From Tubiluchus corallicola (Eukaryota; Animalia; Priapulida), in assembly GCA_030141605.1 (NCBI GenBank), contig JAQGDQ010000609.1:1-44225 (forward strand): a stretch of 44,225 nt of DNA, given 5' to 3'. The notes under the pieces were generated by a model, which was not told the origin of the DNA, did no database searches, and saw nothing but the letters and a program-made list of their open reading frames with translations. Made by a program: the position numbers and the translations under genes. Positions 3,574 to 44,225 of this stretch are shown here, piece by piece; positions within the stretch are counted from its first letter, which is position 1, and each line of letters starts with the position of its first letter.

Positions 3574-4608
3574 AATGATTTGTTCCGTAAATCGAACAAA
3601 CCTGCCATTCCAAATGCATGTATTCCAGATTAGTTTCTTTGTCATGTTAACATCAACATGTGACGCGCATTATTTGTCATGTAATGTAACTACTCATTTT
3701 AAGGCATGTTTATTTTCATCATTCTTGAGAATTCGTGTTCTTAACGTTTTTCGTTATATTGCTGGGCAGGCAAGGGGTGCACGATTGCCGTTGTTTGTCA
3801 CCTCCATGAATAATACTTGCTCTGTCGTTTAATCATCAAAGGTGAATACTGTAGATCATTATATTGTTATTATACATATTGTGCTGGAAGTCAAAATTAT
3901 GTTGACAAGATGGTGAGGAGGAACCATTTATAGAGGGGAAGGTGTTGGACATGTCCCGACTGTTGAGACTAATGTGATCTTGTTAATTTTGGTTACATGT
4001 GTGATATATAATATTATTTATATATACGGCCAAAGACAAAATCTATTTATATTATTATATTGCAGTTCACACATTATTTTCATGATTGTCTATATACTAT
4101 ATTACTCAGTGAATGTCTGTATGCTCAAGTGCAGTGTATGCTTGACAGCATTCTATGGTTTATTCTGCACAAAGCTTTCATAGACACATAACTCCCGTAA
4201 CTAATTATGCTTGGCCTGTTTATGACTAAAGGTTTCCCATCTTGTTGTCATTGTGAAAATATTTATTATTTTGTTGACCGTTTATTTATTTATCAGAAAC
4301 ATGAAATTTGTTTAAGACGAATAATATTATTTCAGGCGCTAGTCATCATTACCAAAAATTCATTCCACTAAATTTCGTTATATTTATTTTTATGAAAATG
4401 ATGTATATATACAAAGTATGTTGTTTACCTAGTATTATAGAGAAAAATAAAATGAATTAAACACAGAGTTCATCAATAGAATTATTTGAAGGTTTCTAAT
4501 GTTGGCAATTCTCAGTCGCAAAAACTAATGCTTACTCATTATATTACGCGATGCAGAAAAAATCTCCACAACACAACGGGCGTCCAGAACAGAAACAGAT
4601 CGTGGGAT

Positions 4609-13006: not shown

Positions 13007-13540
13007 TTAAGTTTTTTCCTCTATTTCGGTCACGGCTTGACGAAACATATCACTAACTTTAAGAGAAGGTGGCTCTTCTCTTGGCAATGAGTCAGTCACT
13101 AATGTCTCATCATGTTGCTGTGGTGAAGACTTGTCTTCTCCAGTTTTTTTGTGTGGTAGAATTACACCTTCAGCTTCAAGAGTTTTTGTAGTTAATGCAA
13201 ATAGATCTTCATCTGTCACTTTACCTTCTTTTTCCAACTGCATGTATTTCTCAACAAAAACTTGACAAAACGATTTGCTCGTTTGGTTGTTAATATCAAT
13301 AACTCCAGGCGAACCAAATTTTTTATAGAACTTTGCTCTGATAACGTCTTCAGGATAAAGAATATTAATGATTTCTTTTTTTGCTGGAGGTCGATTGAAC
13401 GTAGGCTCATGCAGTGGCGGAAATCTTTTGTAGACGTCGTACCAAATGGGTTTATCTTCAACTTTCACTGCACCTGCTTTCATTAAACCCGTCATTCTGG
13501 TGAATATTGTTCCAAGTCTTTCTAGTCTGCTTCCTGCCAT
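13007..13540 (-). CDS. MRPS23: 28S mitochondrial ribosomal protein S23 (mS23), intronless CDS, 177 aa
   Basis: MAGSRLERLGTIFTR..LMKAGAVK..KPIWYDVYKRFPP..ILYPEDVIRAKFY..CQVFVEKY; AATAAA about 33 nt after the stop. Confidence 0.93.
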   Translation of the reverse strand: MAGSRLERLGTIFTRMTGLMKAGAVKVEDKPIWYDVYKRFPPLHEPTFNRPPAKKEIINILYPEDVIRAKFYKKFGSPGVIDINNQTSKSFCQVFVEKYMQLEKEGKVTDEDLFALTTKTLEAEGVILPHKKTGEDKSSPQQHDETLVTDSLPREEPPSLKVSDMFRQAVTEIEEKT

Positions 13541-13789
13541 AGTTCACAAGATAAACGTTATCCATTGTCCAAACATTCTCAAACTTTTACCTAAAGAAAT
13601 AATTAAAAAGTTTGTCTTGTCATACATAGCTAACAAAACAAATTTAATAAGAAAGTTCTAAATTCGTAATGAGCAATGTCTTGTCATTCACTAACACATA
13701 CAAGTAGTCAATTTTCAAGAAAAATGGTGCATATTGCACGATCTCTAGATATAAGGACAGCAAATAGTGCTAGAAAATTAAATGCACCA

Positions 13790-14547: not shown

Positions 14548-17545
14548 AGTTTCAAGAGTTTCAAGAGTTTTATTCATTTTCCACATTGCATCATTACAAT
14601 TAGCATTAAAATACAGATAATTTTCCATTTGAGTAAATATAAATATAAATATGAATAAATGCAATATTATTAAGAAATTTCATAATGCGGGATATACATG
14701 TGCAAATTTCATTACAGAATAATTTTTTGATGCATACAGTTTGAGCCTAAAAGCATAGCTTGACAGGCCAAACTGTATGTGGAAATCTTAAAAAAAATGG
14801 GGGGGGGAGTAGTGACTGAAAGATGAAATGGAGCGAGAAACTAAGAAAAACTGTGATCATGGTTACAAAGTGTTCAGTATCCTGTTAAACATAGTCACGT
14901 TATATTAAGATTACTGTAGCAAAAAATGCAGGTTATTACCATTATCAAATTGTGTTACTCTTCAATACTTTTGAAATATTTCTTTTCTGACGGTTTTTTT
15001 AAAAGTTAAAAGGGAGTGACTACATTTCGAATTGCAGCTTAGTCTGTTCCATAGGACTGGCCCCATATAGCTGATGAAGTGTTTCGCCATATTTGTTCTA
15101 CAACGTCTTGGTATATATTCATTATGTCTGGTATTGTATTTTTTTACATTTATCTTGACTGGATTTTCAAAAAAAGTTGGAAATAAGTTGTTGTTGGTTC
15201 TATACATGTATATACATCCATTAAAATTAATAACATCATCCAGAAGTAATATTTGACATTGCTTAAAATGTGTAGTAGTACTTGTGCTCCTTTTGTCTAG
15301 TTTGAAGATGACACGTAAAAATTTTCGTTGTAAAACTCTTAAGCATTCTAAATTTGTAGTATAAGTAAAGCCCCATAATGTTGTGCAGTAATTTAAATAT
15401 GATAATATTAAACTGTTGTATAATGTTAGAAGATGTTCGGTGTTCAGAAAGTTTTTAATATATGAGATGATACTTATATTTTTTGATATTTTTAATCTGA
15501 TCATGAATATATGTGGTCGCCAGTCTAGATGCTCATTCAGTATTAATCCCAGAAATTTCAGTTCTTTTACACGTGTAATTCTTTTATGGTCTATTATTAA
15601 ATCGTGATTCGCCTGAATTGGTTTATTTCGGGATCTAAACAGAATGTATTTTGTTTTTGATGAATTTAGTGAAAGTTTATTTGTTTTGAACCATATAGCT
15701 AGATCATGTAGAACTGTATTTATGTAGTCAATATTGGTTTCTATTTTATGAAAGCTAAAAAAATGCTTGTATCATCAGCAAACTGAAATAAATTGTGATT
15801 TTTAACACAAAATTTGATGTCATTAATATAAATTAGAAAAAGTAGTGGCCCGAGGACTGAGCCTTGGGGCACGCCACATTTGATTGTTGTTACATCTGAA
15901 AAAGCGTTATTATATTTTACTGTCTGAGTGCGCCCTGTTAAATAATTCTTTAGCCACATATGAGGCAAACCTCTGATACCGTAATAGTACAAATTATTTA
16001 GCAGAATGTCATGGTTTACTGTATCAAATGCTTTTGATAGGTCGCAAAATACTCCGTAGGATGTGCCATTTTTTTCAACAGTATTAATGATATTTTCTAT
16101 AATTTTTGTTAAGGCCATTTCAGTGGAGCTACCTTTTCTGAAACCAAATTGTTTATTACTCAGAATTATTTTTTTTATTAAATAATGAGATAACTGATTG
16201 TAAAAAACTTTTTCTAATATTTTTGATATAAAAGGCAATAAGGACACTGGTCTATAATTGTTCAGAGACATGGGATCATCTGATTTAAACAAAGGAACAA
16301 TAATTGATTCTTTCAATTTCGTTGGTTTTTCACCTGTAAGAAAAGATAAATTAATTAAATATTACAAAGGTTTAGATATGTAGTCAATGGTGTCTATTAC
16401 GACTTTAGGTAACATTTTGTCCTTACCAGGACTTTTATTCCGATTAAACGATTTGCAAGTATTTATTATATCATTTTCTGTTACTGCACTAATAAAAAAG
16501 CTTTGTCGGTAGGTACCTTTAAGATATGTACATGGATTTACGTTTGTGTTTTCAATTTGTTCTGATAATATTGGTCCAATATTGGCAAAGTAATCGTTAA
16601 AAGCATTTGCCACCTCTACATTATTTTTAATTAATTTATTGTTTATGAACAACGTAATGGGTCGATTTTGCCTTTCTTTATGCATAATTTCTTTCATTGT
16701 ATCCCATGTCTTTTTTATGTTATCTTTAACTGTCATCAATCTATCCCTATAATACTGACATTTTGATGCTTTTATAACTGTCTTAAGTTCATTTCTATAT
16801 CGTTTGTATTCTATTTCAGATACGTCATTACTTGCCTTGTTCACCAGAGAACGATACATTTTGTTTTTTCGCTTAACACTTACTAAAATTGCTGTAGTGA
16901 TCCAAGGTTTTTTTGCTGCTTGATGATTGTTATTGCTTTTCTGTAGTTTAATATGTTTGTTATAGATATCAGAAAGCTTAGTATGAAATAAATTGTATGC
17001 GTCTTCGGTATTAGTTGCAGAATATAAATCTGACCAGTCACATTGATTTAAATCTTGGATAATTTTGTTTTTTATATGAACATTATAAGTATGTTTGCGC
17101 ACGTATTCCTTACTGTATGTTTCAATTTTGAGATCAATAATTAAAAAAATTGGGAGGTGATCTGTTATATCTGTTAGAAAAATACCTGATTTATACTTAT
17201 AATCTAGTGCATTAGTAAATATATTATCAATTAGTGTTGCTGAATAAGGCGTAATTCTTGTTGGTCTTGTAACAGTAGGAAACAGATAATTGGTCAGCAT
17301 TGTGTCTAAAAAGTGTCCGGTTTCGTTGTGAGAAGCGTGGTTTATTAAATTTATATTATAGTCTCCTAGTAAGAAAATATGTTTGTTTTGTCTATTAACA
17401 ATTGCCATAGTGTTCTGTATTTTGTCTGTAAAATGGTTAGGATTTTCACCAGGTGGTCTATATATTACTCCCATTATTGTATTTTTATTCTTGCTGCGTA
17501 ATTCAATGAAAAGTGATTCTATGTCTGGATCATTGATATAAAGAC
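14548..17545 (-). mobile_element. 5'-truncated L2-group (Crack/Daphne-like) LINE with disrupted APE-RT ORF2
   Basis: APE motifs GVIYRPP, LLGDYNINL, TLIDNIF, TDHLPIF (16362-17582); RT motifs NYRPVSLL, DLSKAFDTV, GVPQGSVLGP, FADD (15741-16316); C-terminus 14962-15504; 3' stem-loop near 14737-14775; short 9-bp-unit tail. ORF broken by stops/frameshifts. Confidence 0.9.
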
Positions 17546-18199
17546 ACAAGTAGACGTTTGATTGGCTTTGCCACAGTAACATTTGGAGATATGCAAAATA
17601 ATTGATACCTAACTACCACTGTTTGAGTGGCCTTCAACTTCACAATGAACAAGGACTGACAAGTGCAAGAACTGGACCAAATCAAAGTAAACACACGATA
17701 GATCTGTAGGCCTATCTTTTGCTTTTATTCCTAATCGAAAGAAACCCTGAAATTGATAATGGTATATAGTCGAGGAGCTATAACCAATTAAATTAGCCAC
17801 ATCAGTACCAAAGATGACTGGCTTCAGGTAAAGCAACTTTCCTGAAAGATTATAACATGAGCCCAAGTATGCTACAAAGCATGCCTGAAAGATTTAAAGT
17901 CGACAATAAACACAGTTCTGTTTAAGTCTAATTTCTTTTAATTTTGATATCACCTACCGGGGTATTTCATCTCTCGTTTTTGCTATCTATGCAATATCAT
18001 GACCAAATGTTATAACGCTATGAAAATGAGCACACTCGCAGCTATGGTGGCGCGCTCTACCATCCGACATGCTCGAAGAGTCAATAGCAGGTACCTTCGT
18101 TTAGACTTCAACGAACGGCAAAATTATCGTGAAGGCATTAATTACATCTTGTATGCAGCACGCTTAGACGAAATGAAAGTAAAACGCTTATAATTATGA

Positions 18200-22640: not shown

Positions 22641-23127
22641 TAAAAATACAAGTTTACTTACAGGCTCATGACATTTTCAGGTGTTTGTGTATGTATAAAA
22701 GGCAAAAGCAACAAAAATCAACTCAAAGCAGAAATGCATTTCAAAGCATAACAAGGCACAACATTATGCAAAAAATTAATGAAATTCAATGTAGAGAAAA
22801 AAATAATATCAAACAAAAAAGCAACAAAAATCTACTCAAAACAAAAATGCAATTCCACTCAGAATAAAAGGAAGTTATCACAATTCACATATGGAGCAGC
22901 TTTAATTATAGGAAAAACCTGAAGATATGTTATGGACACAGACACAAAGAGATGCCACTGCATCAGTGACTATATGGGTTAATACCATGCTCCTAAATTT
23001 GAATTTATGAACTACACGGGACTTGGAAGATATGAGATGTTATTTTGAAACGTCAGAGGTCAACATTTTGGAAGAACTTCGTAACTGTCTGTCACGTATC
23101 TCAAAGAGAAACGTTCAAAAGTTTTAA

Positions 23128-23633
23128 TTACCAAGTGTCATACAGGTCTCCTATAGGAACTTACCAAGTGTCATACAGGTCTTCTGTAGGAACTTACCAA
23201 GTGTCATACAGGTCTTCTGTAGGAACTTACCAAGTGTCATACAGGTCTCCTATAGGAACTTACCAAGTGTCATAAAGGTCTCCTATAGGAACTTACCAAG
23301 TGTCATACAGGTCTCCTATAGGAACTTACCAAGCGTCATACAGGTCTTCTGTAGGAACTTACCAAGTGTCATACAGGTCTTCTGTAGGAACTTACCAAGT
23401 GTCATACAGGTCTTCTGTAGGAACTTACCAAGTGTCATACAGGTCTCCTATAGGAACTGTCCAAGTGTCATACAGGTCTCCTATAGGAACTTACCAAGTG
23501 TCATACAGGTCTCCTATAGGAACTTACCAAGTGTCATACAGGTCTTCTGTAGGAACTTACCAAGTGTCATACAGGTCTCCTATAGGAACTTACCAAGTGT
23601 CATAAAGGTCTCCTATAGGAACTTACCAAGTGT
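23128..23633. repeat. 33-bp minisatellite x15
   Basis: Unit TTACCAAGTGTCATACAGGTCT(CCTA/TCTG)TAGGAAC; ends at the BEL LTR. Confidence 0.95.
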
Positions 23634-26600
23634 AGTCACAGAAAACACTGTAAACAGAGGTTAATACCACTGAATGCTTTATTAACATAATTAGTATGTC
23701 CAGTATAACATAAATGTTCAGCAGCTCCCATAAGTGGATTAACCTGACTGTTCAGAGCACAGGTGTGTAATGACAGACAGGTGACTAGCAGGTAACAAAC
23801 AGAAAAGCTGGCCAAAACCAAAAGCTTTACATTCACGTCACAGATGGCGCCTCGTGCACGATAAGTAAGATTAACAAAAAGAAAGCTAAGTCTGCTACAC
23901 CCGGCTCCTAATGAGCGCTTATAAAGTGGTCATTACAATAATCTGCTTGTAAGTCACTGTGCAATATTACATGAACTCTGAACAGTAACACTTAGATGCT
24001 ATTTAGTACAACTAAATATTTCAGTCAAAACTGAACAATCATACAGTTTGATAGTTAACACTATTCCAGTGAAACACTTTGAGTGAAATAATTCCAAACA
24101 TGAAAGTTACAGATAAATACTGTTAGCTAAAGCACTACAAAGCAATGAATCAAATAACGAATCGATAATAAGATACGATGTAATAAAACAGAATCTGATG
24201 CGATAGTGACACTTTGATAGCTTATAACAGTTAGCAAAGGCAAATGTCGTTCAATGCTAAGTTCTATGTAACACATCATATAAAATTTAGAATTACATTA
24301 TCACAAAGTTGGCATACTGCCAAGTGATAGAATTTAATGTTAATTTTGTCTGAAAGATTTAAGCAACTATTTGACATACATTTCAAATTACTGGCAATTA
24401 ATTTGGCAAAATTGTAAACTAAATCACACATTCATGAATAACACTTAATTCACAAAATTAACACAGAATCAAATTTTTCGCATAACAGCGAACTATTGCA
24501 GCATCAAATTTAAATAACTAAATAATACAGGCAAGGTCATTTCTCACCAACAATACTGCAGTCATTAGGTCAAAATAAACGTAACTATATATGACAAATA
24601 TGAAATAATTCGTACTTTAGAATTAAAGTGTATATCAACACATTACACAGAATTTTACTCAGCTTCTTCGAGGAGACATAGCTTTGTTATTGGTCTAAGC
24701 AATGTCGTAGATGGGGTCTTCACCATAACTGATCTCACGAGTCCATCCGGAGCTGGAAATACTTCGGTGATTCTGCCTGTTGTCCATTGATTCCGAGCAG
24801 CATTCTCATCAACGACCAGAACCAAATCATTCTCTTTAAAGTTTCTTTTTTACAGTCAGCCATTTCTGACGTTGTTGCAAGTTTGGAATGTATTCCTTGA
24901 CCCAGCGGCGCCAGAAGATGTTGACGAGATACTGGCACTGCCTCCATCTCCTTTTCAGCATAGAGTCGTCTTTGCAGAAGATGCCTGGTGGCAAATTTGG
25001 GCAAGGTCGCTGTAGAATGAGGTCATTTGGCGTTAATGGTCTGAAGTCATTTGGGTCATTGGAAAACTCCGTTAAAGGTCTGTTGTTCATGATGAACTCG
25101 GCTTCAGCAATCAAAGTCAGCAAGACTTCATCAGTAATGGTTTGTTCCTTCAACAGTTGCCAGAAGATGCCACGGAAAGATCTGATACACCTTTCCCAAA
25201 CACCACCATGGTGACTGGCCCCTGCAGTGTTGAAGGTCCATTTTACACCCCTTTGCACCATATGCTTGTTTAATTTTTCTTCATTCCACAGTTGTAGAGC
25301 TTCACGAAGTTTACGCTCACCACCAATGAAGTTTGTCCCTCTGTCAGTCCAGACTTCCAGCACCTCTCCTCTTCTACATATGATTCTTCGAAATGCGTTG
25401 ATGAAGGAGTCAGTGTCAAGATTGTGCGTGATCTCTATATGAACAGCTCTGGTGGCCATGCATGTAGCAAGGCACCCATAGCGCTTGATGGTAGAACGGC
25501 CTTGTCTAACATATATCGGCCCGAAAAAGTCGATTCCTATTCTGGAAAATGGAGGATCGTATGACTTAATCCTTGCAGTCGGAAGATCTGCCATTAACTG
25601 CTCGGCAGGCCGGGAGCGTTCTTTCTTGCATTTGAAGCACCGAGACAAAACTCTTCTTGCTGCGCTTTTCCCCTTAATAATGTAATACTTCAGTCTCATC
25701 TGGGAAAGAACGTAGTCTCTGCCTAAATGAGCATATGATTCATGATAATATTGAATCAGCAAGTCAGTTATGTGATGTTTGTAGGGAAGAATCAGTGGAT
25801 ATTTGTAACCATAGTTGAAGCTACCTCTGGTTAGTCTTCCATAAACTCTCAGTAGGCCTTCGGCATCCACGAAGGGTCTGATGCCATACAGAGGACTGGA
25901 CTTTAGGTGATTCTTCTCTTTATTAAGTGATTCTTTATTACCTGGTAATGCGGGAGACATCAGTTTTATCTCTTCTCGAAATGCAATCTTCAGCACCAGA
26001 TGAATAATGGATTTCTCTGCTTCTTCCAGATCACCATATCGCAGATGCTTCCCTATCTTTCCATGGTAACCTGTTCCCTTGTTCTTCAAGTAATGCTTAT
26101 ACTTGATGAACCAAGCTACAGAATTACGGAGTTTTTCCCATGAAGAGAAATAAGTTAGCAACTCGTCTATTGGCTGGTCTTGGATGGCCAAGTTGATCTG
26201 CACTTTCTTCACTTCTTCATGGTCATCAGGTACTGGGAATAGTGTTGGCTGTGCTGGCCACTCAGCTTCTGTTTTCCAGAGAAAAGGAGGACCCTTGAAC
26301 CATCTGTGGTCTGCAGATAGCTGTTCTGCCTTTATGCCTCTTGTTATGTCATCTGCAACATTCTGCGAAGAACTGACATACCGCCATTGACTAACATCTG
26401 AACCACAATGAATCTCAGCGAGTCTATTGGCCACATACACTTGGAACCTCTTCTTTTCATTTTGGATGAATTTCAAAACTGATGTTGAATCAGTCCAGAA
26501 AACAACAGCATCTATTTTGATGTCCAAAGCTTCTAGAATTGTTTTGTTCATTCTGACAGCAATAACTGAAGCTTGCAATTCTAATCTCGGCACAGTTTGT

Positions 26601-29600
26601 GTTTTCAGAGGAGCTACTCTGCTCTTAGCTGTTAGCAGGCAACAATGAATGTGTCCCTGCTGATTAACAAACCGAACATAGGAGCATACTCCATAGGCGT
26701 CATTCGAGGGATCACTAAAATGATGCAGTTGGGTAGATGTAACAGGTCCGAAATTGATCAGCTTGACACATCTCGGAATTTTCAGGTCATTAAGACTGCT
26801 CAAGCTAGTGGTCCACTTTAGCCACTTAGTTTCTAGATCATCTGGGATATGCTCATCCCAATCAAGCTTTAGCTTGCACAAGTGCTGGAGTAAGACCTTT
26901 GCTGGTAGAATCACAGCACATAAGAAACCCAAAGGATCAAACAATGATGATGTCTCAGACAGGATACCTCGCCTCGTGGTAGGTTTGCTCTTCAGAACAG
27001 ACTTGAATTGAAATACATCATCTTGAGTGTTCCATCTAATTCCAAGGGCACTCTCTATTGGTGGATCAGCTAGCTTCTGTTGCAAGTCCAGAATAGGTTT
27101 GGCTCTTTCAGATTCCGGAATTTCTTTGATAACAGCCTCTCTGTTACTAAGGAACTTTGTCAAGTGGAAACCGCCTCTCTGCAGTAGTTCCGTGAGGCTA
27201 TTTGCTAGTCTTACTGCTTCATACTCTGTGCTGACAGACTTTAACAGATCGTCAACATAAAAATTGTTCTTTACAGCATACAGTGTTGCAGCATCAGAAT
27301 CATGAGCATTGTCATCAGCTGTCTTTCTGACTGCCAGATTGGCACAAAATGGTGATGAGATACAACCAAACAAGTGAACAGACATGTGGTAGTCTACTGG
27401 ACTGTCGCCAATCTGAGCGCCATCATCATACCACAAGAATCTCAGCATGTCATACTGTGAAGGATCTACGAGGACCTGGTTGAACATGCCCTCGATGTCT
27501 GCACAAATAGCAACTTCATGCTCTCGGAACCGTAGCAATACATCTAATAAATTTGATGTCAGATTCGGTCCAGACATTATAACATCATTCAGAGATATGC
27601 CATTGCACTTGCAGGAGCAATTAAAAACAACACGGATCTTGTTTGGCTTCCTAGGGTGAAATACTCCATGGTNNNNNNTACCAGTATATGGGATTCTTAC
27701 CATCACCATCTTGACGAATTCCAGAATATTCTTCATCTACCTGCTTTGCGTAGCCTTTCTGGATATTGTCACTCATGGCCTTCTTATATAGTTCCATGTA
27801 ATCGCTATCCTTTTCAAATTTCCTTTCCAGCATTAAGAAGTTTCTTAAGGCTACATGCCTGTTGTTAGGCAATTCAGGTGGATCTTGACGAAATGGAATC
27901 TTAAACTGGTAATGTCCATCAATGAGCTGTGCAGAATCAGTAGTAACTTTTAATGCCTGTGCATCTTCTACTGACATGCCAACCTTTGCCTCTCTGACAA
28001 CACCACAGGAATCCATTTCCCAAAACTTTTGAACTTGTTTAAGCAACATATCACCATCCTCAGTCTTCGTGTAATTGCTAGTGCACTGCAAACTATTTGA
28101 TGTTCCTCCCAATATGGACCAGCCCAGCGGACCTCTAACTGCTATGGGTTCATCATTACTACCTGATCTTGTCTCATAGACTAGAAAACATCGCGTTGCA
28201 TTTGTGCCTATCATTAGCGTAACCTCATTGATGTCAGCTGTGTAGAACGGAATGGACTTCAAGTGCTCAAAGGTGTTCAGCTCCACCCTTTTTGGACACT
28301 TTGTGGAACTCAAATTTAAACCATTCATAGCTGCTACACTTGGTAATTTGATATACTCATCGCAGTCGATTCCAGACACTAGCAAGTCAATTTTCTCAAC
28401 TTGTCGCTGCTCTTTTCCACACACAGTAGTTATGGACACTGTACCTTTGGAACCTTCAACATTGAGGTATTGCAGAAGCTTTTGCTCACAAAGGCAAGAG
28501 CTTGAACAACTGTCCAGCATTGCTAATGTTGTAACCGTTCTACCGTTCAATTCCGACTTAACAGTTACAGGAACAACTTGTAGAAAACAGCCAGGATCGA
28601 CAAACTGTGTAGAATTACAACTCCTCAATTCTGGTACATTACGATTCTCAGTCTCAGTGACTTCAGCGACCACTACAGTACCATTACCTCCAGAGTGGTC
28701 ATCGATTTGACTTGGCCCAGCTCCATTTGGCGGATTGTATGAAACACTAGGTGTCTTTTGCTGCCCTGGTTGTTGTCGTCTTTCGGTTATGCCACCACGA
28801 CCAAACCTCGGTAATGGATGCAACATTTGGTGATGCTTTGTGTGTGTTTTACAGTTCGTGTCTTTGCAGTTCATTCCTAGAGGGCACATCTTCGATCTAT
28901 GATCTGGCTTAAAGCAATTTATGCAAAGCTTCTTTTTAAAAACAAATTGGAATCTGTCATCGGTAACATTCTTCTTAAAATCAGTGCAGTCTTCCAAACT
29001 GTGGTCTCTAAGGCACATTGGACATTTGGCATTTTGCCTAGCCAATTCGGTGTTGAAGACCTTTGTACTTTTGCTCCTTTCCATCCTTTTCCCAGAACCA
29101 CTTCTAGATGATAATTGTTTGCTGCTCTCAAATATGTCACCGAAGACTGGGTGGTTGCTTGCTTTGGCCTTCTTGCAAACGAAATACACTAAATCTGCAA
29201 ATGTGGCTTCCTTAATATGATGTTGATTATTAGAGTCATCATCTTCAGTGAGCGTACTTAACCAGTGGCTTCGCCATTGCATTGGTAACCGCCTTACAAT
29301 CTTCTTTAAATTATCAGAAGCATTAATATCCGCGTGATAACCTAGACGCCCTAAAGCATCTCGGCAATCAACCAGTTTATCAGCATAATCTTGAAGCCCT
29401 TTCCTGTCACTGACCTTGAACTCTGGTCCATCAATTAATCCATTAATGTATGCTCGGGCTATCACATAAGGAGAGCCAAAACGCTCTTCCAAAAGCTTCT
29501 TTGCTTTCACGAAGCCTTCACTTGGTTGCAGCGTCACACAGTTTTTAATCAGCTCATAAGCCTTACCAGTTGTATATCGTTGTAAGAAGTGCAATTTTTC

Positions 29601-31251
29601 GCCATCGTCGCTGCATTTTGATTCAACATTGGCCTCAAATGAGCATAGAAAACGATGATAATCAGTTGGATCGCCATTAAATTCAGTTAGTGCTGATGCA
29701 GGTAAAGAAAAACCTCGTTTTATTGCATCTGCCATCTCCCTGATAACATTGTCATTAGATGCAGATGGTGTATTCCTCAGCTGGGCATAGTCAAGATGGT
29801 CGTACGTTACACGTAGTTCTGCAACTTGAGCCCCGTCAACAACACGAGAAGTTGGGTTCACATGAGCGAGTGTGTCTGCACTTGTGAATGCACCTGCATT
29901 CATTGCTGTTTGTCTGGCTTTATCCTGGGAACGCCCTTGCGATCTGTGGTGGGCAGTTCCATGTGCAGGTGTCATGTGAGACAAGTGTGAATGCAACTCA
30001 ACTGAATTGGTGTCTCTTTCTTCTTCCTGCAGAATTCGCAAACTCTCTGTTGCTATCTTAAAATCAGTCTCTGCTTTAAGTTTTTCAGACTGTTGCTCAA
30101 TTTTCAACTGTTGTTGTTTTAGCATTTGTTCACCTTGCAACTGTTCAAGCTTTAGTTTTGCTTTATAGGCATCCACCTTTATTTTAGCGCTTGAACTCAC
30201 GCTGCGTCGCGAGTTTGCCTGTGATGAGCGTGTGAGGGCGGATCCATGATCGCTACCCGGTGGTGCGGGCACTTCCGGTGGCTTGAGTGAATGCAAACGG
30301 GCGGATCCATGATCACTACCAGGAGAGGGTGCTGCATGTGGGCTTGGTTGCCATTTCTGTTGTAGATACGCCTCCACGTTTGCTTGCACGGCACTGTACT
30401 CACAGCTTTTGCCATCCATGTACTCACATATTTCATCTAATTCACATTGTTCAGTCACTAATTGCTTCAAAGTCTCACAAGTGTTTAGAACCTCCTCATA
30501 GGCCTTTGTTAATGAATCGGCCTTTTCCTTTATTAGTTCAAAATCGGCATTCTGTCGTAGTAGTGACTTCAAAACATTAATCAGTCTTGTCATGTAGGCC
30601 ACTTGACCTGACCTAGTTCTTTTTAACTTTTTAATGTTCTCAGACGGCATTAGAAATTGTTGCCAATCAGGAATTGCAGTAGTACCCATGACAGTAGATT
30701 CAGTTTCCAGTGGGGTACTCTCATCACTAATACTATCTGCTTGCTGAGAAAGTTCCTTCTTTCCAGACTGTGACATTATTATTTCCACACAGCAGTCTAA
30801 AGTTTTACAGCAACGTAGCAGTAGTTGTCCTACAATCAGTGTTAACAGCAAAGTAGGTCAAGCTCAGAGTTGTGTACCTGTATAGGCTACAGCATGGCTT
30901 CTAATCCTCCACAGTTCACTGTTGTAAAAAGTAAACTTTCCACAGCAAATGTCAGCATAATAGTTGAGTCAGGTTAATGATGTAGTCACAGAAAACACTG
31001 TAAACAGAGGTTAATACCACTGAATGCTTTAGTAACATAATCAGTATGTCCAGTATAACATAAATGTCCAACTGCTCCAATCAAGTGGATTAACCTGACT
31101 GTTCAGAGCACAGGTGTGTAATCACAGACAGGTGACTAGCAGGTAACCAAACAGAAAAGCTGGCCAAAACCAAAAGCTTTACATTCACGTCACAGATGGC
31201 GCCTCGTGCACGATAAGTAAGATTAACAAAAAGAATGCTAAGTCTGCTACA
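23631..31251 (-). mobile_element. BEL/Pao LTR retrotransposon, near full length; LTRs 30981-31251 (5') and 23631-23899 (3')
   Basis: Direct LTRs of about 270 bp with TGTAG...CTACA ends; purine-rich GGAGCCGGG before the 3' LTR; internal gag-pol ORF. No TSD seen. Confidence 0.95.
24655..30776 (-). CDS. BEL/Pao gag-pol polyprotein (Gag, 3 Zn knuckles, protease, RT, RNase H, integrase); frame breaks at the N gap 27673-27678 and at a T run near 24846-24851
   Basis: FNGDPTDY, CPMC..H..C / CINC..H..C, MLDSCS, KIRVVFN, ADIEGMF, FYVDD, HHFSD.S, RLEL, H..H..C..C, GIDFFGP, TDRGTNF, GGVWER; the final shifted segment reads DLVLVVDE..GRITEVF..DGLVRSV..RPITKLCLLE. Confidence 0.9.
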
Positions 31252-31252
31252 A

Positions 31253-31445
31253 TTAAGATTACTGTGGAAAAAGAATACAGGTGATTACCATTATCAAAGT
31301 GTTACTCTCAATACTTTTGAAATATTTCTTTTCTGACGGTTTTTTTAAAAGTTGAAAGGGAGTGACTACATTTCGAATTGCGGCTTAGTCTATTCCATAG
31401 GACTGGTCCCATATAGCTAATGAAATGTTTCGCCATATTTATTCT
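31253..31445 (-). mobile_element. Fragment of the same L2-group LINE family as 14548..17545
   Basis: Highly similar to about 14905-15100; directly abuts the BEL 5' LTR. Confidence 0.8.
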
Positions 31446-36320: not shown

Positions 36321-37385
36321 TAAAGCAGAATTCGACAATAGGATCATATTTACGCTAAAGATACCACCAGTTGGTCAATGGTTCAAAGCATACGCGGTTT
36401 CTTTACCCGACAGCCCGACTGGCGTCTGAGTCCACCCTCCTACTCACAGCTTCACGTTAAACGTATAGGTCTTTGGAACGGACATACATCGGGCAAGAAT
36501 CCTTTTCCATACAATAGCAGTATTTATATGACATCTGGAGAACGGGAATGGGCCATGGGTGGTGCTGGGTATGTATAGATAGCCCATTCAGCGGTGGGTG
36601 TCATAGGCATATTTAGAATTCGCGAGAGGGCCACGGCGTCCCGCAACGGGCGTTTTCCCGGACCCAAGTCGCGATTTTTTCGAAATTTTGACCAAACAGC
36701 CTGCGGAAAAAACGTTCTAGCGGCGCCTGGTGGGACTCTCGGAAGGAGATATTTGGTTCTTTAGAAAGAGGAAGAACAGGGCTACACGATTGTGTGAGCT
36801 ATATTTTAGGATACGTCCACCGTTTAGTTAATTAGATGTTCTATTTTTGGCAATTTTCGCTTAGAAAACTGCTGACGCAAAGCCATTGTTGTGACGTCAT
36901 CCATTATGCTCTATAACCTTATAGCTTTAATTCAGTAAAAGCTGCAGCTACTGGCTTTGCGTTAGGTAAGTAAACAAACACTAGGTAGAATGTTCGCGCA
37001 TTGTTGATTATAAGTGTATTTATAAGCAAAATTTTTTGCGGGGCCTTTGCTAGTTAAAATATTAAAACAAATCGTGCTTCTTTTAATTGTCGATACTTAC
37101 CATAAATAAATCAGGATCGATGTTATAACGACTATGGCTATTCCCATAGCAGCAATGCCCAGCTTGTAGGCTGAAAAAGTAAATAATTTAGCTCTTATTA
37201 TAAAATTGAAATATAGTAATGTGCATTCAAAGTGCCTCAAAACAAAGAATGAGTCCGTTATCATTTACACTGCAAAAGCGCATAAACTGTAGCAAGACTA
37301 TAAGTATTAAAATTAGGAAGATCAAACTTGGATTATGAGTAATTAATATTTTTTAATTAATCATGAATTATCTAAATCTCCTGCT

Positions 37386-37706
37386 TGCCTACCTTCCTAC
37401 CTACTTACCTATGTACCTACCTATGTACCAACCTATTTATCTACCTACGTACGTACGAACCTACCTACCTACTTCCTATCTACCTACCTATGTACCTAAC
37501 TATTTATCTACCTATATATCTACCTACGTACCTACTTACCTATCTACCTACCTATGTACTTACCTATTTATCTACCTACGTACCTACTTACCTATCTACC
37601 TACCTATGTACTTACCTATTTATCTACCTACGTACCTACTTACCTACCTACCTACCTACCTACGTACCTACCTATTTATCTACCTACGTACGTACTTGCC
37701 TGCCTA
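37386..37706. repeat. Degenerate (CCTA/TACC)n tetranucleotide microsatellite
   Basis: Direct inspection. Confidence 0.9.
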
Positions 37707-37939
37707 CATGCTTAACAATCCACTTGCTTAAAACTATTTAGATACATTCATACAAGGCAAGCAGGTATAAAAACATTGTTCTGTTAACTTCGTTTCCGTC
37801 ACACTTCAAGCTATTCTATACTATACTACTCACTTCTATTGTGATCTATTTGTGCCATTGCGTTTATTCTACAGTATTTTGTTTTCGTCTTTAGTCAGTC
37901 AGTCAGAAAATTCTCAGCTTCATTTTCCTAGTAAGTAAG

Positions 37940-39182
37940 TGTGACGCTCAGGCTTATTTTAGGCCAGGTTATGTAACTAGTTCCTACTGTTATAATTCCA
38001 CCATTTATAAAAGAACTTTAGTTAAGATGTTTAACGGTATAATGACAGAAGCCAACCTGTTCTGAAATCAGATTTCACCTGTACATTCAGTGATACTGTT
38101 TATGCATTACTACTATATCATGTGATTGAAGCCACGTAGACGAAATTTTGGCTGTTCAGTTCGCCCTGGTATTCCGCTTTAAGTTGTCGAGTTAAGCGGA
38201 CGTTCTCATGTCATGAAATGATGGTTTAGTAGTAACGGTGCTTGCTTGTAGAAAAGCGATCTGTCTACCTGGTTACGACAGAGACGATAGTTGCATTCTA
38301 GCGATGATACTTACCTATTGCTGATTATATTTTCCTGATGCTGATGATACATCACTTACCAGTTTTCGATGATATCTGCTGCTGATGATACTTACCAGTA
38401 TTTACCTGACTTTGATGATACTGTCGTTGGTGCTTCCATGCTGTGATTGCGGAATTGGTGGTCCTTGCCTTGCGGCGAGTGCGGGAGCTTGGATGCAACC
38501 CTGTTTTGGCGTCCTGTAAGTGGAGGCGTGTGCATAGGGAGTCGTCGGGGTTTGGAGACATCGTCGTCCACGTGGTCAGATCCATCAAGAGGTGGTGTGG
38601 TCGGCCGTTCTGTGGTGCACCATCCCTCGATCGGGCCCCTGGTGGTGAGATGGCGCGGAAGGTTAGCGGGAGAATGGTCGCTTGATGATGCCAAGACTGC
38701 ACTGGTGAAAAACATTACGTTGTTCTTTCTCTTCTTAGCCGGCTTAGTCTTTATTATTAACAGTTGTCTCGTAATGTGTTTTGAAATATTCATTAAATTG
38801 TTATATTATTTTATTAATTCAGTGGTTTCTTCTCAGTGTTTTCGACTAAGTGTTTTATTCTTTACCTAAGGGTTACACTTAAGTCACGAACCACATATTT
38901 ACAATAACGGAACTTAGACTACATCGTCACATTATGGTGTCAGAAGTGGGATCTTTGACTTTATTTGGTGTAACTCGGTAGGAATAAAATTCTTTGTCAG
39001 CATTTTGAGAATTTAATGATATTTACTTTCAGGTAATTAGTTACATAGCTAATTTTCTGGGGGAATCTTTGGGCAAAAGCATTTCGAAAGAACATAGCAT
39101 CTTCCGTTGAGTGAATTTATTGATTACTCAGTTGAATGTGTTTTGTCCATTATTTAAATAGGTTTCCTGCAGATTTTGTAAA
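37940..39182 (+). mobile_element. Gypsy (Gmr1-like) 5' LTR 37940-38931 + tRNA-Leu PBS 38935-38952 + leader; inverted relative to the adjacent element
   Basis: TGTGAC...GTCACA ends, then TGGTGTCAGAAGTGGGAT; reverse complement of 42992..44225. Confidence 0.9.
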
Positions 39183-42100
39183 GCAACTCACTGATCTGTT
39201 CGTCATTGAGATGAGAATCATATGCTACATCATTGAGAGACTGGGTGGGTGAGGCAGAAGGCGGGAATGCATATTCAGGAAGTTTCAATGAACACTCATT
39301 TTCCTCCTGCTCATCCATCTTCACATTACCACAACCACCTTCAGACAAAACACTGTCTAGTGACGTTGTACTAAATTCCTCACACTTTGCAAACAAAACC
39401 ATGTGCTCGTCGCGTTCAACAAATGGTTTCAACATGTTGATATGATATGTTCTTGTATGGCGCTTGCGTGCACATTTGCCTCCTAAATGTATTTTATATG
39501 TCCAATCAGACAATTTATCAACAACTGTAAAGGGGCCACGATAGCGCTTTTGCATTTTGCTTTTTCCTTCAGGCATTAAAACAAGAACTTTTTGCCCTAT
39601 TTCAAGCGAGCGTTCTGAAGTGGTTTTATCATACCAATTTTTCTGTGATATTTTAGCTTTTTGCAAAGCTTCATGGGCATCAGTAGTTGCCTCTTCTACA
39701 GTGTTAATTATGCGAGTCACGTAATCATCAATTTCCTCCCACTTAGGAGCTTCTACAGAGCCCCAACGTTCCTTTAGGGCAGCCAAAGGCCCACGCACGG
39801 GAAAACCGTAAACTAGCTGAAATGGAGCATACCCAGTGGATTCTTGGGGTACTTCCCGGAAAGCAAATAAAATGAACGGAATAGTTTCATCCCAGGGTAA
39901 ATGTTTCTCATTTTGCATGACTTTTAAAATGCAGGATTTTAATGAGCCATTAAATCTCTCAGTTAACCCATTCCCCTGTGGGCTATATGGGGAAGTGAAA
40001 ATTCCCTTTACACCCAAGGCCTGTTCTAAATCATGGATCAACTGCGAGGTGAATTGAGTACCTATGTCGGTTAAAATCTCACGCGGGATGCCATGTCGAC
40101 ATATGTATTGCAATAAAGCTTTAACAACAGTAGTGGTTTCAATATTTGGCAGCGGGTAGCAATCGGGGTACCTCGTAGCATGATCTATTATTACTAACGC
40201 GTACTTAGTCCCCGAGGGTGTTCTCTTCATAGGCCCAATAATATCCATGGCTATAGTTCGAAATGCAATCGAAGGTATGGACAATGGCTTTAATTTTGCT
40301 TTATCAGAACGTTTAATTCTCGCCGTTTTCTGACATGGGACACACGAGCGGCAATATTGTGTCACTGAACGTTTAACTCTAGGCCAAATACATTCTTGTA
40401 AAACACGTTGGGTAGTTTTACGTATGCCCAGGTGACCAGCCATGTGCGCATCATGTGCCAAAGATAAGACTGCCAAACGTCTATACTTGGGTACAACCAA
40501 AAGTTCGCGGGGTTCAGCATCGCGCTTTTCACGTGTCAGGTAATATAAAACCCCATCTTTAATGAAGTAACCCTTTCTTTGGGCACGAGCTACTGTTTCT
40601 GTGACTGCGTGATCACGTAAATTGCGCAAACTAACATCATCGCGCTGTTCTTGCTGCAATTGTTCTTTACTAAGCTGTAACAGCTGCTGTTGCTGTGCTT
40701 TAGTAGCTATGCCAGATGCAATATTTTTTTCCGCTTTTTGATCAGCGTTTAAACTACTTAGTAATTGTTTCTCGCTGTTAGCTTCTGCTTGTAGCTGCTT
40801 TGCTTTTGACCGGGTTACTGCAAAAGCTTTTTTTGAATTACCAGTTCGTTTCGCGACATTGATATTTCCGCTCACAAGTTCATCAAAATAATGTGACGTA
40901 TCTGAATTTTCAGGTGTGATACATTCTAAATCAACTGACTTAGGTGGTGTACTAAAACTCTGTTTAATGCTAAATGGTGTCACAGCAGTTCGGTAATCAT
41001 TACCTAGCAAAAAGGGCACAGGAAGACTATCAGACACTGCCACTCTCAATCTACCATTGACTAGCGTACATTCCACCTCAACAACAGCCGCACGTGTATT
41101 TTTAACATCGCCATGCACACACCAAATTTTGGTACAATTTTCACTTTGTAGAAACTGTTCTGGACGGACATAACGTGGTTGGATCAAACTCACGCTAGCA
41201 CCAGAATCTCTTATACCATCGATCCAGATACCATTGACTTTAGCTTTAAAGCTAAACTCATCAGACTCAGGCACACACTCAGGCATAGCCGCAGGTGAAC
41301 TGGTAGAGTGACTGGATCGGTGACCAGTATTTCCTGTCTTGGCCAAGAATTGACGACTAGGATTTCTACTCTTGCCACTAGTTTCACCATAATTAGGGCG
41401 TTTCGGGCACTGGGTCCTTTTGTGTCCAAGTTCTCCACAAGTATAACAGCGTATCTTCTTCATGACGTCATTATTCATCTTTTTTCCAGAACCATTTGAA
41501 AAAACTGCCGGCCTAAAATTTCCACGCTGTTGTTGCATTGGTTTAAGTTTTGAAGCTGTACCTAATGCATTAGAAGCAATGTACAAATCGGCTTTCTCTG
41601 CCACCTTTTCCATTGTCTTCTGCCCTTGCTGCCTGACCCAAATGCTCATTTCACGGGGCATCAATGTAAGGGCCTGCTCAATACATAGCAGTTCACAAAT
41701 GTTCTCAAAGGTGGACGCTTCTTCGGCTTTCAGCCATTCTTGCAGGGCACGATCAAGCCGTACAAAAAGCTGACGGAATGTTTCATCCGGTCTCCGAGTA
41801 ATCTTGCGGAAACGCTCAAGATACATGTCATTGGAGAGGACATAGGCAGCTAACAAAGTCTTCCTTAAAACATTGTAATCTTGCATGCTGTCAAGTGGTA
41901 CTTGTTGAAAAGCCTGGGCTGCTTTTCCGGATAAAGCTGGGCCCAGCGATGCAGCAAAGTGTTTCTCTTCAAGGCCATTAGCTTTGGCTACTGCTTCAAA
42001 CCACTGTAAGAAAGTATGCAGATCATCGGTTCCCACTGTAAAAACACGTGATAACTTTACACGGGTTATTCGAGATGCGGTTGTAGTAAGTATGCCATCA

Positions 42101-42684
42101 GGTGATTGAGGAGGAACCTGTGTCACGTGACTTGGAGATGAGGCATCCAGCTCACGAAGCTTCAACTCAAACTGATACTGCTCTTTCTGCATTCGTTCTC
42201 TGCGTTCCTCACGCTCACGTTCCCATTCTCTCTCTTCACGTTGCATACGTTCACGCCTTTCTTCACGTTTCTGTTCCCGTTCCCATTCACGCTCTTTCTC
42301 GCGCTCTACTAACTTTAACTTTTCAATATTGTAAAGAGGTACTGAACGTTCTGTCATCTCATCATCCGCAGGTTTACCATTAATAGCAGAATGCAAGGTA
42401 AGGTCGGCAGGAGGGGGAGTTGCTAACAGTTGATCAGACACACGTCTGCGCCCACTCATCTGCGCAACAGACACACTCGGTGTGCTTGACACACCTCCAA
42501 CTTCTTTCGGTCTAACACTAGGTTCACCTGTCGTCACAGGGTTACCTTGTGCATTCATGATTATATCAATTATTCCGGCCTTATTTGCACCCTGTGGTAA
42601 AGTTAGCTTACGTTCAACAGTTATCTGCTTTAAGACAGGTACAGTAAGTTGCTGCAATTCACTCTCCACGTAAACGCGTGACAT
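39154..42684 (-). CDS. Gmr1-like Gypsy polyprotein: Gag (coiled coil, SCAN-like capsid, CCHC knuckle), aspartic protease, integrase; truncated before RT/RNase H
   Basis: CYTCGELGHKRTQC; IRDSGAS; AHDAHMAGH..CRSCVPC; AMDIIG / LTDIG / NGLTERFNG (DDE); RYRGPF. Integrase follows protease directly; no YxDD motif. Confidence 0.9.
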   Translation of the reverse strand: MSRVYVESELQQLTVPVLKQITVERKLTLPQGANKAGIIDIIMNAQGNPVTTGEPSVRPKEVGGVSSTPSVSVAQMSGRRRVSDQLLATPPPADLTLHSAINGKPADDEMTERSVPLYNIEKLKLVEREKEREWEREQKREERRERMQREEREWEREREERRERMQKEQYQFELKLRELDASSPSHVTQVPPQSPDGILTTTASRITRVKLSRVFTVGTDDLHTFLQWFEAVAKANGLEEKHFAASLGPALSGKAAQAFQQVPLDSMQDYNVLRKTLLAAYVLSNDMYLERFRKITRRPDETFRQLFVRLDRALQEWLKAEEASTFENICELLCIEQALTLMPREMSIWVRQQGQKTMEKVAEKADLYIASNALGTASKLKPMQQQRGNFRPAVFSNGSGKKMNNDVMKKIRCYTCGELGHKRTQCPKRPNYGETSGKSRNPSRQFLAKTGNTGHRSSHSTSSPAAMPECVPESDEFSFKAKVNGIWIDGIRDSGASVSLIQPRYVRPEQFLQSENCTKIWCVHGDVKNTRAAVVEVECTLVNGRLRVAVSDSLPVPFLLGNDYRTAVTPFSIKQSFSTPPKSVDLECITPENSDTSHYFDELVSGNINVAKRTGNSKKAFAVTRSKAKQLQAEANSEKQLLSSLNADQKAEKNIASGIATKAQQQQLLQLSKEQLQQEQRDDVSLRNLRDHAVTETVARAQRKGYFIKDGVLYYLTREKRDAEPRELLVVPKYRRLAVLSLAHDAHMAGHLGIRKTTQRVLQECIWPRVKRSVTQYCRSCVPCQKTARIKRSDKAKLKPLSIPSIAFRTIAMDIIGPMKRTPSGTKYALVIIDHATRYPDCYPLPNIETTTVVKALLQYICRHGIPREILTDIGTQFTSQLIHDLEQALGVKGIFTSPYSPQGNGLTERFNGSLKSCILKVMQNEKHLPWDETIPFILFAFREVPQESTGYAPFQLVYGFPVRGPLAALKERWGSVEAPKWEEIDDYVTRIINTVEEATTDAHEALQKAKISQKNWYDKTTSERSLEIGQKVLVLMPEGKSKMQKRYRGPFTVVDKLSDWTYKIHLGGKCARKRHTRTYHINMLKPFVERDEHMVLFAKCEEFSTTSLDSVLSEGGCGNVKMDEQEENECSLKLPEYAFPPSASPTQSLNDVAYDSHLNDEQISELLYKICRKPI

Positions 42685-42991
42685 TCTAATCACAGGATAA
42701 TATAGGACAAATAGTAGTTACAGTGAAAAAACTTTATGCTTGCAGAATATTTATAGATCTATCACTCAACTGACACACACTGGCTCAACGCATACAAACA
42801 GACAAAAATACTGTATAGTAGGGTAATGTACGTGCAAATCAAACAAAGTAGCAAACTAGAATATACAAAATCTAGGCCAAGACTTTTGACTAGCCTGCAA
42901 CGAAATAACGGTTTCACTAGCACTTGAAACGTTTACAGTGCAATCAAGGTCAAATCGGCATTCAAGTCGGCATACACCTGGAATTATAGCG

Positions 42992-44225
42992 TTTATAAAA
43001 TCTACAGGAAACCTATTTAAGTAATGGACAAAAACACATTCAACTGAATAATCAAAAATTCACTCAACGGAAGATGCTATGTTCTTTCGATATGCTTTTG
43101 CCCAAAGATTCCCCCAGAAAATTAGCTATGTAACTAATTACCTGAAAGTAAATATCATTAAATTCTCAAAATGCTGACAAAGAATTTTATTCCTACCGAA
43201 TTACACCAAATAAAGTCAAATATCCCACTTCTGACACCATAATGTGACGATGTAGTCTAAGTTCCGTTATTGTAAATATGTGGTTCGTGACTTAAGTGTA
43301 ACCCTTAGGTAAAGAATAAAACACTTAGTCGAAAACACTGTGAAGAAACCACTGAATTAATAAAATAATATAACAATTTAATGAATGTTTCAAAACACAT
43401 TACGAGACAACTGTTAATAATAAAGACTAAGCCGGCTAAGAAGAGAAAGAACAACGTAACGTTTTCACCAGTCCTGTCTTGGCATCATCAAGCGACTATT
43501 CTCCTGCTCCTATTCCGCGTCATCTCCTCACCAGGGGCTTGATCGAGGAATGGTGCACCATAGAACGGTTGACTACACTACCTCTTCATGGATCTGATTA
43601 CGTGAACGACGTCTCCAAACTTTGACGATTCCTGATGTACACGCCTCCACTAATACGACGCCAAAATGGGGTAGCATCCAAGCTCCTGCACTCGTCGCAA
43701 GGTAAGGATTACCAATTTTGTAATCACAGCATCCCGCACCAACGACAGTATCATCAACGTCAGGTAAATACGAGTAAGTATCATCAGCAGCAGATATTAT
43801 CGACAACTGGTAAGTGATGTATCATCAGCGTCAGGAAAATATAATCAGCAATAGGTAAGTATCATCGCTAGAATGCAACTATCGTCTCTGTCGTAACCAG
43901 GTAGACAGATCGCTTTTCTACAAGCAAGCACTATTACTACTAAACCATCATTTTATGACATGTGAACGTCCGCTTAACTCGACAACTTCAAGCGGAATCC
44001 CGGGGCGAACTGAACAGCCAAAATTTCGTTTACGTGGCTTCAATCACATGGTATAGAAGTAATGCATAAACAGTATCATTGAATGTACAGGTGAAATTTG
44101 ATTTCAGAACAGGTTGGCTTCTGTCATTATATCGTTAAACATCTTAACTAAACTTCTTTTATAAATGGTGGAATTATAACAGTAGGAACTAGTTACATAA
44201 CCTGGCCTAAAATAAGCCTGAGCGT
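42992..44225 (-). mobile_element. 5' LTR (43243 to just past the window end), tRNA-Leu PBS (43222-43239) and leader of the Gmr1-like element
   Basis: ATCCCACTTCTGACACCA-TAA-TGTGAC on the + strand; homologous to 37944..39182 in inverted orientation. Confidence 0.9.

What the first reader, a model, noticed from the sequence alone, without database searches (positions are those of the whole stretch)
37940..44225. RT-less Gypsy Gag-protease-integrase ORF enclosed by two inward-facing LTR+PBS arms: an LTR retrotransposon rebuilt with DNA-transposon architecture
Seen: an uninterrupted ~1176-aa Gag-PR-IN ORF ends where RT should begin and reads into an inverted copy of the element's own leader, which supplies the last residues and stop. 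Both flanks are ~1.24-kb inverted repeats, each a ~990-bp LTR + tRNA-Leu PBS + leader; the visible outer end is TGTGAC. Known: Gmr1-like elements have the PR-IN-RT order, and Ginger DNA transposons use Gypsy-like integrases with TGT...ACA TIRs. Inference: the IN-before-RT order lets one rearrangement yield an intact integrase between inverted att ends, a possible precursor state for Ginger-like elements or a distinct non-autonomous class. Convergent LTR promoters could also give hairpin/dsRNA that silences the family. A dead fusion of two opposed insertions is an equally real explanation.
Basis: partly seen in the sequence, partly recalled or inferred. Interest (0 to 1): 0.85.

Follow-up and report, generated by a model that had tools for sequence, protein, structure and literature searches.

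The report
Retrotransposon misfire with two left ends
Two different copies of an ordinary animal jumping-gene family are fused back to back here, leaving an intact integrase gene between inverted end repeats; this is likely a one-off copying accident pasted in whole, not a spreading new kind of transposon.

Summary
The anatomy is confirmed. An unbroken 1176-aa Gag(SCAN)-protease-integrase ORF with intact catalytic motifs stops in the integrase-RT linker of a Gmr1-like Gypsy element. It lies between two inverted 1.24-kb arms, each LTR + primer site + leader.

The arms are 93% identical, so they come from two different family members. 37 differences are G(left)/A(right) against 1 the other way, with an ADAR-like neighbour bias.

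The mobile-class reading failed its main test. In four public DNA runs (two samples), 0 of 46 contigs cross the 39182/39184 junction, while both parents run on normally and the LTR sits at many other flanks. None of 78 related loci shows inverted LTR+primer arms.

Best reading (0.55): two reverse-transcribed 5' ends were joined without homology and inserted by integrase through two U3 ends. Rivals: later rearrangement of opposed copies (0.22), misassembly (0.08), mobile unit (0.07). The target-site duplication cannot be tested, because the window stops about 4 bases short, and a duplication would not prove DNA transposition. The locus is a natural example of the opposed-LTR geometry Bao et al. 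2010 proposed for Ginger origins, without evidence of mobility.

The parts
37935..37939 (+). Left flank; the 4-5 bases that would be the target-site duplication if the unit inserted whole
   Evidence: sequence; the matching right side lies outside the window
37940..38931 (+). Left LTR, 992 bp, G-rich variant, U3 end facing outward
   Evidence: mixed-flank loose ends at 37940 and 38931 in three runs
38445..38680 (+). Zone of one-way G(left)/A(right) differences: 29 of the 60 right-arm A positions that align to A or G; ADAR-like
38935..38952 (+). Primer-binding-site motif of the left arm (tRNA-Leu assignment recalled)
   Evidence: the same motif start occurs in 6 of 78 related loci
38953..39182 (+). 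First 230 bases of the leader of the left copy; its reverse strand supplies the last 9 codons and the stop of the ORF
39183..39183 (.). Fusion point; one base that matches neither parent's continuation, with at most about 2 bases of microhomology
   Evidence: loose ends behind 39182 and before 39184
39154..42684 (-). Gag(SCAN, CCHC)-protease-integrase ORF, 1176 aa, broken off in the integrase-RT linker
39418..40494 (-). Integrase: HHCC, D-D-35-E and GPF/SH3 all intact (residues 731-1089)
42685..43221 (-). Full leader of the right copy; 42992-43221 is the part shared with the left arm
   Evidence: normal leader joint 39182 to 42990 in three runs
43222..43239 (-). Primer-binding-site motif of the right arm
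   Evidence: sequence
43243..44225 (-). Right LTR, A-type variant, U3 end facing outward, cut about 4 bases short by the window end

Best explanation
This is a single malformed copy of an ordinary multicopy Gmr1-like Gypsy family, in which the 5' ends of two different family members are fused back to back, likely as unintegrated DNA copies that the family integrase then likely pasted in through two U3 ends. Shown: the two-left-end anatomy, two distinct LTR variants, a junction with almost no homology, an ordinary parent family, and no junction in two other samples' contigs. Inferred: one DNA copy ran from its LTR to the integrase-RT linker, and a second covered LTR, primer site and 230 bases of leader. 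They were joined by a reverse-transcriptase jump or by end joining. Both outer ends are valid integrase ends because the LTR starts TGTGACG and ends CGTCACA. The unit could still encode Gag-protease-integrase from the right LTR. It has no RT, no sense 3' LTR and no purine tract, so it would not copy itself by reverse transcription.
For: Two templates: arms 919 of 950 identical outside the variable zone and 239 of 292 inside it. Both variants occur elsewhere in the runs: a left-type contig over 38488-38764 at depth 320 in X3, and a right-type loose end at 38443 in X1. Not a spreading form: 0 of 46 contigs cover base 39183 in X1, X2, X3, X4; the bin holding it is exactly 3/4 of the bin before in all four runs, and both sides run on into their normal neighbours. 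The left end starts exactly at the TG used as an insertion end by other copies. Leader- and ORF-bearing copies are few relative to LTRs: depth at 38167 is 51622/1435/852 in X1/X2/X3 against leader 2718/121/22. Depth is only a rough guide. Chance juxtaposition of two such copies is therefore unlikely, whereas two DNA copies meet naturally in one particle (inference). Fusions of two parents before integration, with target duplications, are reported for same-orientation elements (PMC1950507, passages; bioRxiv 10.1101/452573, first of two parts read). No purine run of 10 or more on the ORF strand in 38901-39300.
Against: No target-site duplication could be checked, and it is the one feature that separates this from a later rearrangement. 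Logan contigs drop rare forms: a joint seen in X2 is missing from X1 of the same sample. Several window alleles are absent from all depth in the runs, so this very copy was not seen and is not confirmed as real DNA. The papers read cover same-orientation fusions only. Antisense nesting at this same linker does occur (L030), which keeps the two-step route alive.
Confidence: 0.55

Rival explanations
1. Two separately inserted copies were fused afterwards in the chromosome: by antisense nesting or proximity followed by a deletion, or by an inversion with one break in a leader and one in an integrase-RT linker.
For: Arms from different variants fit two insertions. The near-blunt junction fits end joining. 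L030 shows an unrelated LTR element inserted antisense at the same linker position of a Gmr1-like copy. 9 of 14 listed differences between the window ORF and the runs are replacements, which fits some decay after insertion (a biased subset of a cut table).
Against: It needs two rare ORF- or leader-bearing copies to meet and break while the ORF is still intact; the ORF differs at 20 of 1465 bases from the main X3 contig. No LTR end lies at the junction, so nesting alone is not enough.
Confidence: 0.22
2. The junction is an assembly or library chimera joining two repeat copies.
For: The junction is in 0 of 46 contigs. The window has an N gap at 27673-27678, begins in a tandem repeat and ends inside the LTR. 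No genome is held for checking.
Against: There is no shared sequence at the junction for an assembler to slip on. A fold-back chimera of one molecule would give identical arms, not 93%. The runs lack other private alleles of this copy too, so they probably are not its source individual.
Confidence: 0.08
3. The unit moves as DNA, with its own integrase acting on the two inverted U3 ends: a proto-Ginger or a distinct non-autonomous class.
For: Integrase motifs are intact and the left end is TGTGA, fitting the TGTNR of Ginger termini (PMC2836005). A second LTR-sense to ORF-antisense joint (38299 to 40644) occurs in two studies, in a copy about 7% diverged.
Against: No second copy of this junction in two samples. 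0 of 78 related loci have inverted LTR+primer arms, and 74 carry RT downstream of integrase. Arms, ORF and flank fail the Ginger1 features. The excision mechanism of Ginger1 is unknown, and LTR integrases normally only integrate. The second joint could be a plain inversion in an old copy.
Confidence: 0.07

Closest known systems
Gmr1-like Ty3/Gypsy LTR retrotransposons (parent family)
   Same: SCAN-type Gag, CCHC, protease, then integrase ahead of RT. This order is described in PMC8220671 and bioRxiv 10.1101/2025.03.03.638093 (passages) and seen in relatives. TG...CA LTR and primer site.
   Different: RT, RNase H, purine tract and the direct 3' LTR are missing, replaced by an inverted 5' end from another family member.
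Complex LTR insertions fused before integration (Sabot and Schulman 2007, PMC1950507; Zeng and Sun, bioRxiv 10.1101/452573)
   Same: Two parent copies are joined into one unit proposed to be inserted by ordinary integrase; the LTRs may differ.
   Different: In the parts read these are same-orientation, three-LTR or swapped-LTR plant elements. Here the parents are opposed, joined without homology, and both outer ends are U3. No target duplication is shown here.
Ginger1/Ginger2 DNA transposons (Bao, Kapitonov, Jurka 2010, PMC2836005)
   Same: Gypsy-type integrase with HHCC, DDE and GPY/F between inverted ends starting TGTNR. The paper proposes opposed LTRs around an integrase as one possible origin.
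   Different: Arms of 1.24 kb against 40-270 bp. Gag and protease are still attached; no YPYY, OTU or Ulp1; the flank is not CCGG/CCGT; no multiple copies. The paper's scenario uses a 3' LTR plus an upstream insertion, not two 5' ends.
DIRS-1-type retrotransposons with inverted LTRs (search listing)
   Same: Inverted terminal repeats on a retroelement.
   Different: DIRS use a tyrosine recombinase and keep RT; this has a DDE integrase and no RT.

Membership tests
Gmr1-like Gypsy (origin of the sequence) | Protease-integrase-RT order | tested here: met
   Integrase follows protease directly. Relatives carry RT-RNase H after the point where this ORF breaks; 74 of 78 related loci have RT downstream.
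Gmr1-like Gypsy (origin of the sequence) | SCAN-like capsid domain in Gag | tested here: met
   PF02023, E 2e-14
Gmr1-like Gypsy (origin of the sequence) | Placement in the Gmr1 clade by an RT or integrase tree with named references | not tested
   No RT present; no tree built
Complete LTR retrotransposon | Direct LTRs, RT-RNase H, polypurine tract | tested here: not met
   LTRs are inverted, no RT, no purine run
Ginger1 | Terminal inverted repeats of 40-270 bp | tested here: not met
   1.24-kb arms made of LTR, primer site and leader
Ginger1 | Stand-alone 500-800 aa transposase with YPYY motif, usually a C-terminal OTU or Ulp1 domain | tested here: not met
   1176-aa Gag-PR-IN; no such Pfam domain; no YPYY before the zinc finger, by inspection
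Ginger1 | TGTNR termini | tested here: met
   Left end TGTGA; this is shared with Gypsy LTRs, and the right end is not visible
Ginger1 | 4-bp CCGG/CCGT target duplication | tested here: not met
   Left flank ends TAAG
Any DNA-transposon-like mobile class | The same unit at several sites | tested here: not met
   0 of 46 contigs cross the junction in two samples; rare forms can be dropped from contigs
Unit inserted in one piece | Target-site duplication on both sides | not testable with these tools
   The window ends about 4 bases before the right LTR end; no genome held

The most novel reading that the evidence does not exclude
Gmr1-type elements repeatedly throw off two-U3-ended units, and because their integrase precedes RT these keep an intact integrase. 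Some are then excised and reinserted as DNA, so this locus is a caught-in-the-act precursor of Ginger-like transposons. The second opposed joint at 38299/40644 would be another such product.
Probability: 0.07. Interest if true: 0.85.

Novelty: new variant of a known kind. Interest (0 to 1): 0.33.

Why it matters
How a DNA transposon could arise from an LTR retrotransposon is an open question (PMC2836005, Discussion). This locus supplies the hypothesised substrate: an intact Gypsy integrase gene between two outward-facing integrase ends. It makes the excision step testable. As it stands it is most likely a dead by-product, which mainly tells us how reverse transcription or integration goes wrong. 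The side finding, an LTR variant with an ADAR-like one-way A/G cluster that appears to have spread in the family, would matter for how host editing shapes retrotransposon LTRs.

Tried and rejected
No whole genome is held, so no genome-wide copy search or flank extension was possible. No RNA holder was listed, so expression and small RNAs were not examined. Viral contigs gave no relative.

L017 first looked like a second inverted case, but it keeps RT-RNase H sequence and its inverted arms do not match the direct repeats that abut its coding region. L030 is an antisense nested insertion of a different LTR element.

A local hairpin as the cause of the A/G cluster was not supported: folding z = 0.02 and 1.10. 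CpG decay explains at most 6 of 29 sites. An APOBEC-type G-to-A reading fits less well (GG bias p = 0.03, purine-follower bias p = 0.82) but is not excluded, because polarity needs an outgroup.

The host could not be placed: the best mS23 hits are 41-56% identical and spread across arthropods, vertebrates, molluscs and lancelets. No tRNA gene lies in the window to test the primer site.

Literature: 'two U3 ends'+'integrase' gave 0 papers. 'inverted LTR'+'aberrant'+'integrase'+'target site duplication' gave 0. 'inverted LTRs'+'retrotransposon' gave 3, all on Dictyostelium/DIRS. The library lacks most subscription papers, and supplements were not read. No structure prediction was run; it would not bear on the question.
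Full report
Observation. The described structure is in the sequence. One reading frame runs from ATG 42684 to a stop at 39156-39154 on the minus strand, 1176 aa. Pfam finds SCAN, a CCHC knuckle, the integrase zinc finger, core and C-terminal SH3/p58 region, and no RT. Against 15 relatives (alignment A1) the protease D-S-G, HHCC, D814-D873-E909 and GPF motifs are all intact. The protein stops in the linker from which relatives continue into RT-RNase H; 14 of 15 show a YxDD-type motif there and one is itself cut short. This SCAN-PR-IN-RT order is the Gmr1-like organisation (PMC8220671 and bioRxiv 10.1101/2025.03.03.638093, passages). The arms 37944-39182 and 44225-42992 align at 1158 of 1242 columns. 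Each is LTR, primer-site motif and the first 230 bases of leader. The LTR begins TGTGACG and ends CGTCACA. The right LTR lacks about 4 bases at the window end.

The arms come from two family members. Identity is 919 of 950 outside 38431-38720 and 239 of 292 inside. Across the arm, 37 sites are G on the left and A on the right, against 1 the other way (p = 3e-10). C/T changes are balanced at 7 and 6. Taking A as ancestral, A's preceded by G are spared (3 of 29 changed, 17 of 31 unchanged, p = 3e-4). This is the ADAR preference stated in the abstract of PMC8809894 (search listing). A G-to-A deaminase model fits less well, polarity is unproven, and no unusual local fold was found. The G-rich form is not private to this locus: an X3 contig matches it over 277 bases with 4 differences and one gap at depth 320. 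So the cluster does not show that the inverted unit's own hairpin was edited.

The parent family is ordinary. Five DNA runs from three studies hold the stretch or part of it. Laid on 37760-42990 (X1, X2, X3, X5), contigs leave the window with mixed foreign flanks at 37940 (9, 8 and 5 contigs in X1, X2, X3) and behind 38931 (5, 10 and 7). Both LTR ends therefore serve as insertion ends at many sites. The leader continues normally through a strand-changing joint 39182 to 42990 in X1, X2 and X3. The ORF continues past 39184 into other sequence which, read by eye, fits the motif preceding RT in relatives. Depth is only a rough guide, but LTR depth exceeds leader depth 12- to 39-fold, and ORF depth is roughly one to four times that of the left flank.

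The junction test. On 39128-39237, 46 contigs were laid (X1 11, X2 12, X3 7, X4 16; 31 listed; two samples). Every listed piece ends at or before 39182 or starts at or after 39184. The depth bin 39180-39183 is exactly three quarters of the preceding bin in all four runs, so no laid contig covers base 39183. That base matches neither parent's continuation, and there is no useful homology around it. Limits: contigs drop rare forms, and a joint seen in X2 is not listed for X1 of the same sample. Several window alleles are absent from all depth in X1, X2 and X3, so this copy itself was not seen. The result argues against a common, multicopy inverted class. It does not confirm or deny the single junction.

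Other genomes. The metagenome scan covered 27 of 64 parts, found 434 relatives and kept 78 loci. Of these, 74 have RT downstream of integrase, one is circularly permuted and two end too soon. One (L030) is interrupted at the same linker by an unrelated LTR element in antisense. Sixteen have direct repeats around the coding region, and none has inverted LTR+primer arms; the one inverted hit, L017, keeps RT sequence and its arms are not its LTRs. Most loci are too short to hold both ends, so this survey is weak on architecture.

Mechanism. Three one-off routes give this shape: joining of two unintegrated DNA copies followed by integration through two U3 ends; deletion between opposed neighbours; or an inversion between two copies. 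I favour the first (0.55). Copies with leader and ORF are few, so two of them meeting and breaking in the chromosome while the ORF is still intact is improbable, whereas two DNA copies share a particle. The ORF differs at only 20 of 1465 bases from the main X3 contig. Pre-integration fusion of two parents is reported for same-orientation elements (PMC1950507, passages; bioRxiv 10.1101/452573, first part), and pairwise recombination among family members in PMC5668417 (abstract). Unchecked notes from this scan describe similar two-left-end Gypsy copies with target duplications in other genomes. They moved me from chromosomal rearrangement toward this route, but they are leads, not evidence. They also mean the form is not unique. 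A second opposed joint in this family (38299 to 40644, X2 and X3, ORF side 13 differences in about 172 bases) may be another such product or an inversion in an old copy. The unit cannot retrotranspose unaided: it has no RT, no sense 3' LTR and no purine tract. Whether it is transcribed, or makes hairpin RNA from its 1.2-kb arms, is untested.

Comparison. It is not a Ginger element. Arm length, ORF content and flank all fail the Ginger1 features in PMC2836005 (first part and Discussion read); only the TGTNR end is shared, as with any Gypsy LTR. That paper already proposes opposed LTRs around an integrase as a possible Ginger1 origin and notes that excision is unexplained. My searches found no paper on two-U3-ended Gypsy copies, in a library that lacks most subscription journals.

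Verdict. This is a real-looking, probably unique malformed Gmr1-like insertion: a new variant of a known kind, interest 0.33. The bold reading, a mobile proto-Ginger, has probability about 0.07 and would merit 0.85. Long reads across the right end and the junction would settle it.

Noticed in passing
window 38445-38680 versus the right LTR: One-way cluster: 29 G(left)/A(right) against 1 reverse in 38431-38720. A preceded by G is spared (3 of 29 changed sites against 17 of 31 unchanged, p = 3e-4), as expected for ADAR editing written back into DNA. The G-rich form is deep in X3 (depth 320), so it probably spread as a subfamily.
   Followed up: partly
window 38299 to 40644 (contigs in X2 and X3): A second LTR-sense to ORF-antisense joint with 4 extra letters, in a copy about 7% diverged, in two studies. 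It is either an independent misfire or an inversion in an old copy.
   Followed up: partly
L030 8362-8957: A Gmr1-like copy interrupted at the same integrase-RT linker position by a different LTR element in antisense; its sister L032 continues into RT.
   Followed up: yes
L017 2260-14418: Degenerate Gmr1-like element amid a tangle of inverted and displaced non-LTR repeats.
   Followed up: partly
window 23631-31251: BEL/Pao element on the minus strand (DUF1759, RT, Peptidase_A17, DUF5641) with direct repeats about 7350 bases apart, 94-99% identical, and a 6-base N gap at 27673-27678.
   Followed up: no
window 14962-17612: LINE remnant (endonuclease and RT) on the minus strand, broken by stops and frameshifts; its 3' end recurs at 31308-31445.
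   Followed up: no
window 13007-13543: Uninterrupted reading frame for mitochondrial ribosomal protein mS23, with animal hits at 41-56% identity.
   Followed up: partly
window 1-706, 4592-5209, 6096-6597, 23029-23732, 37344-37750: Tandem arrays with periods of 29, 39, 36, 33 and 4-12 bases.
   Followed up: no
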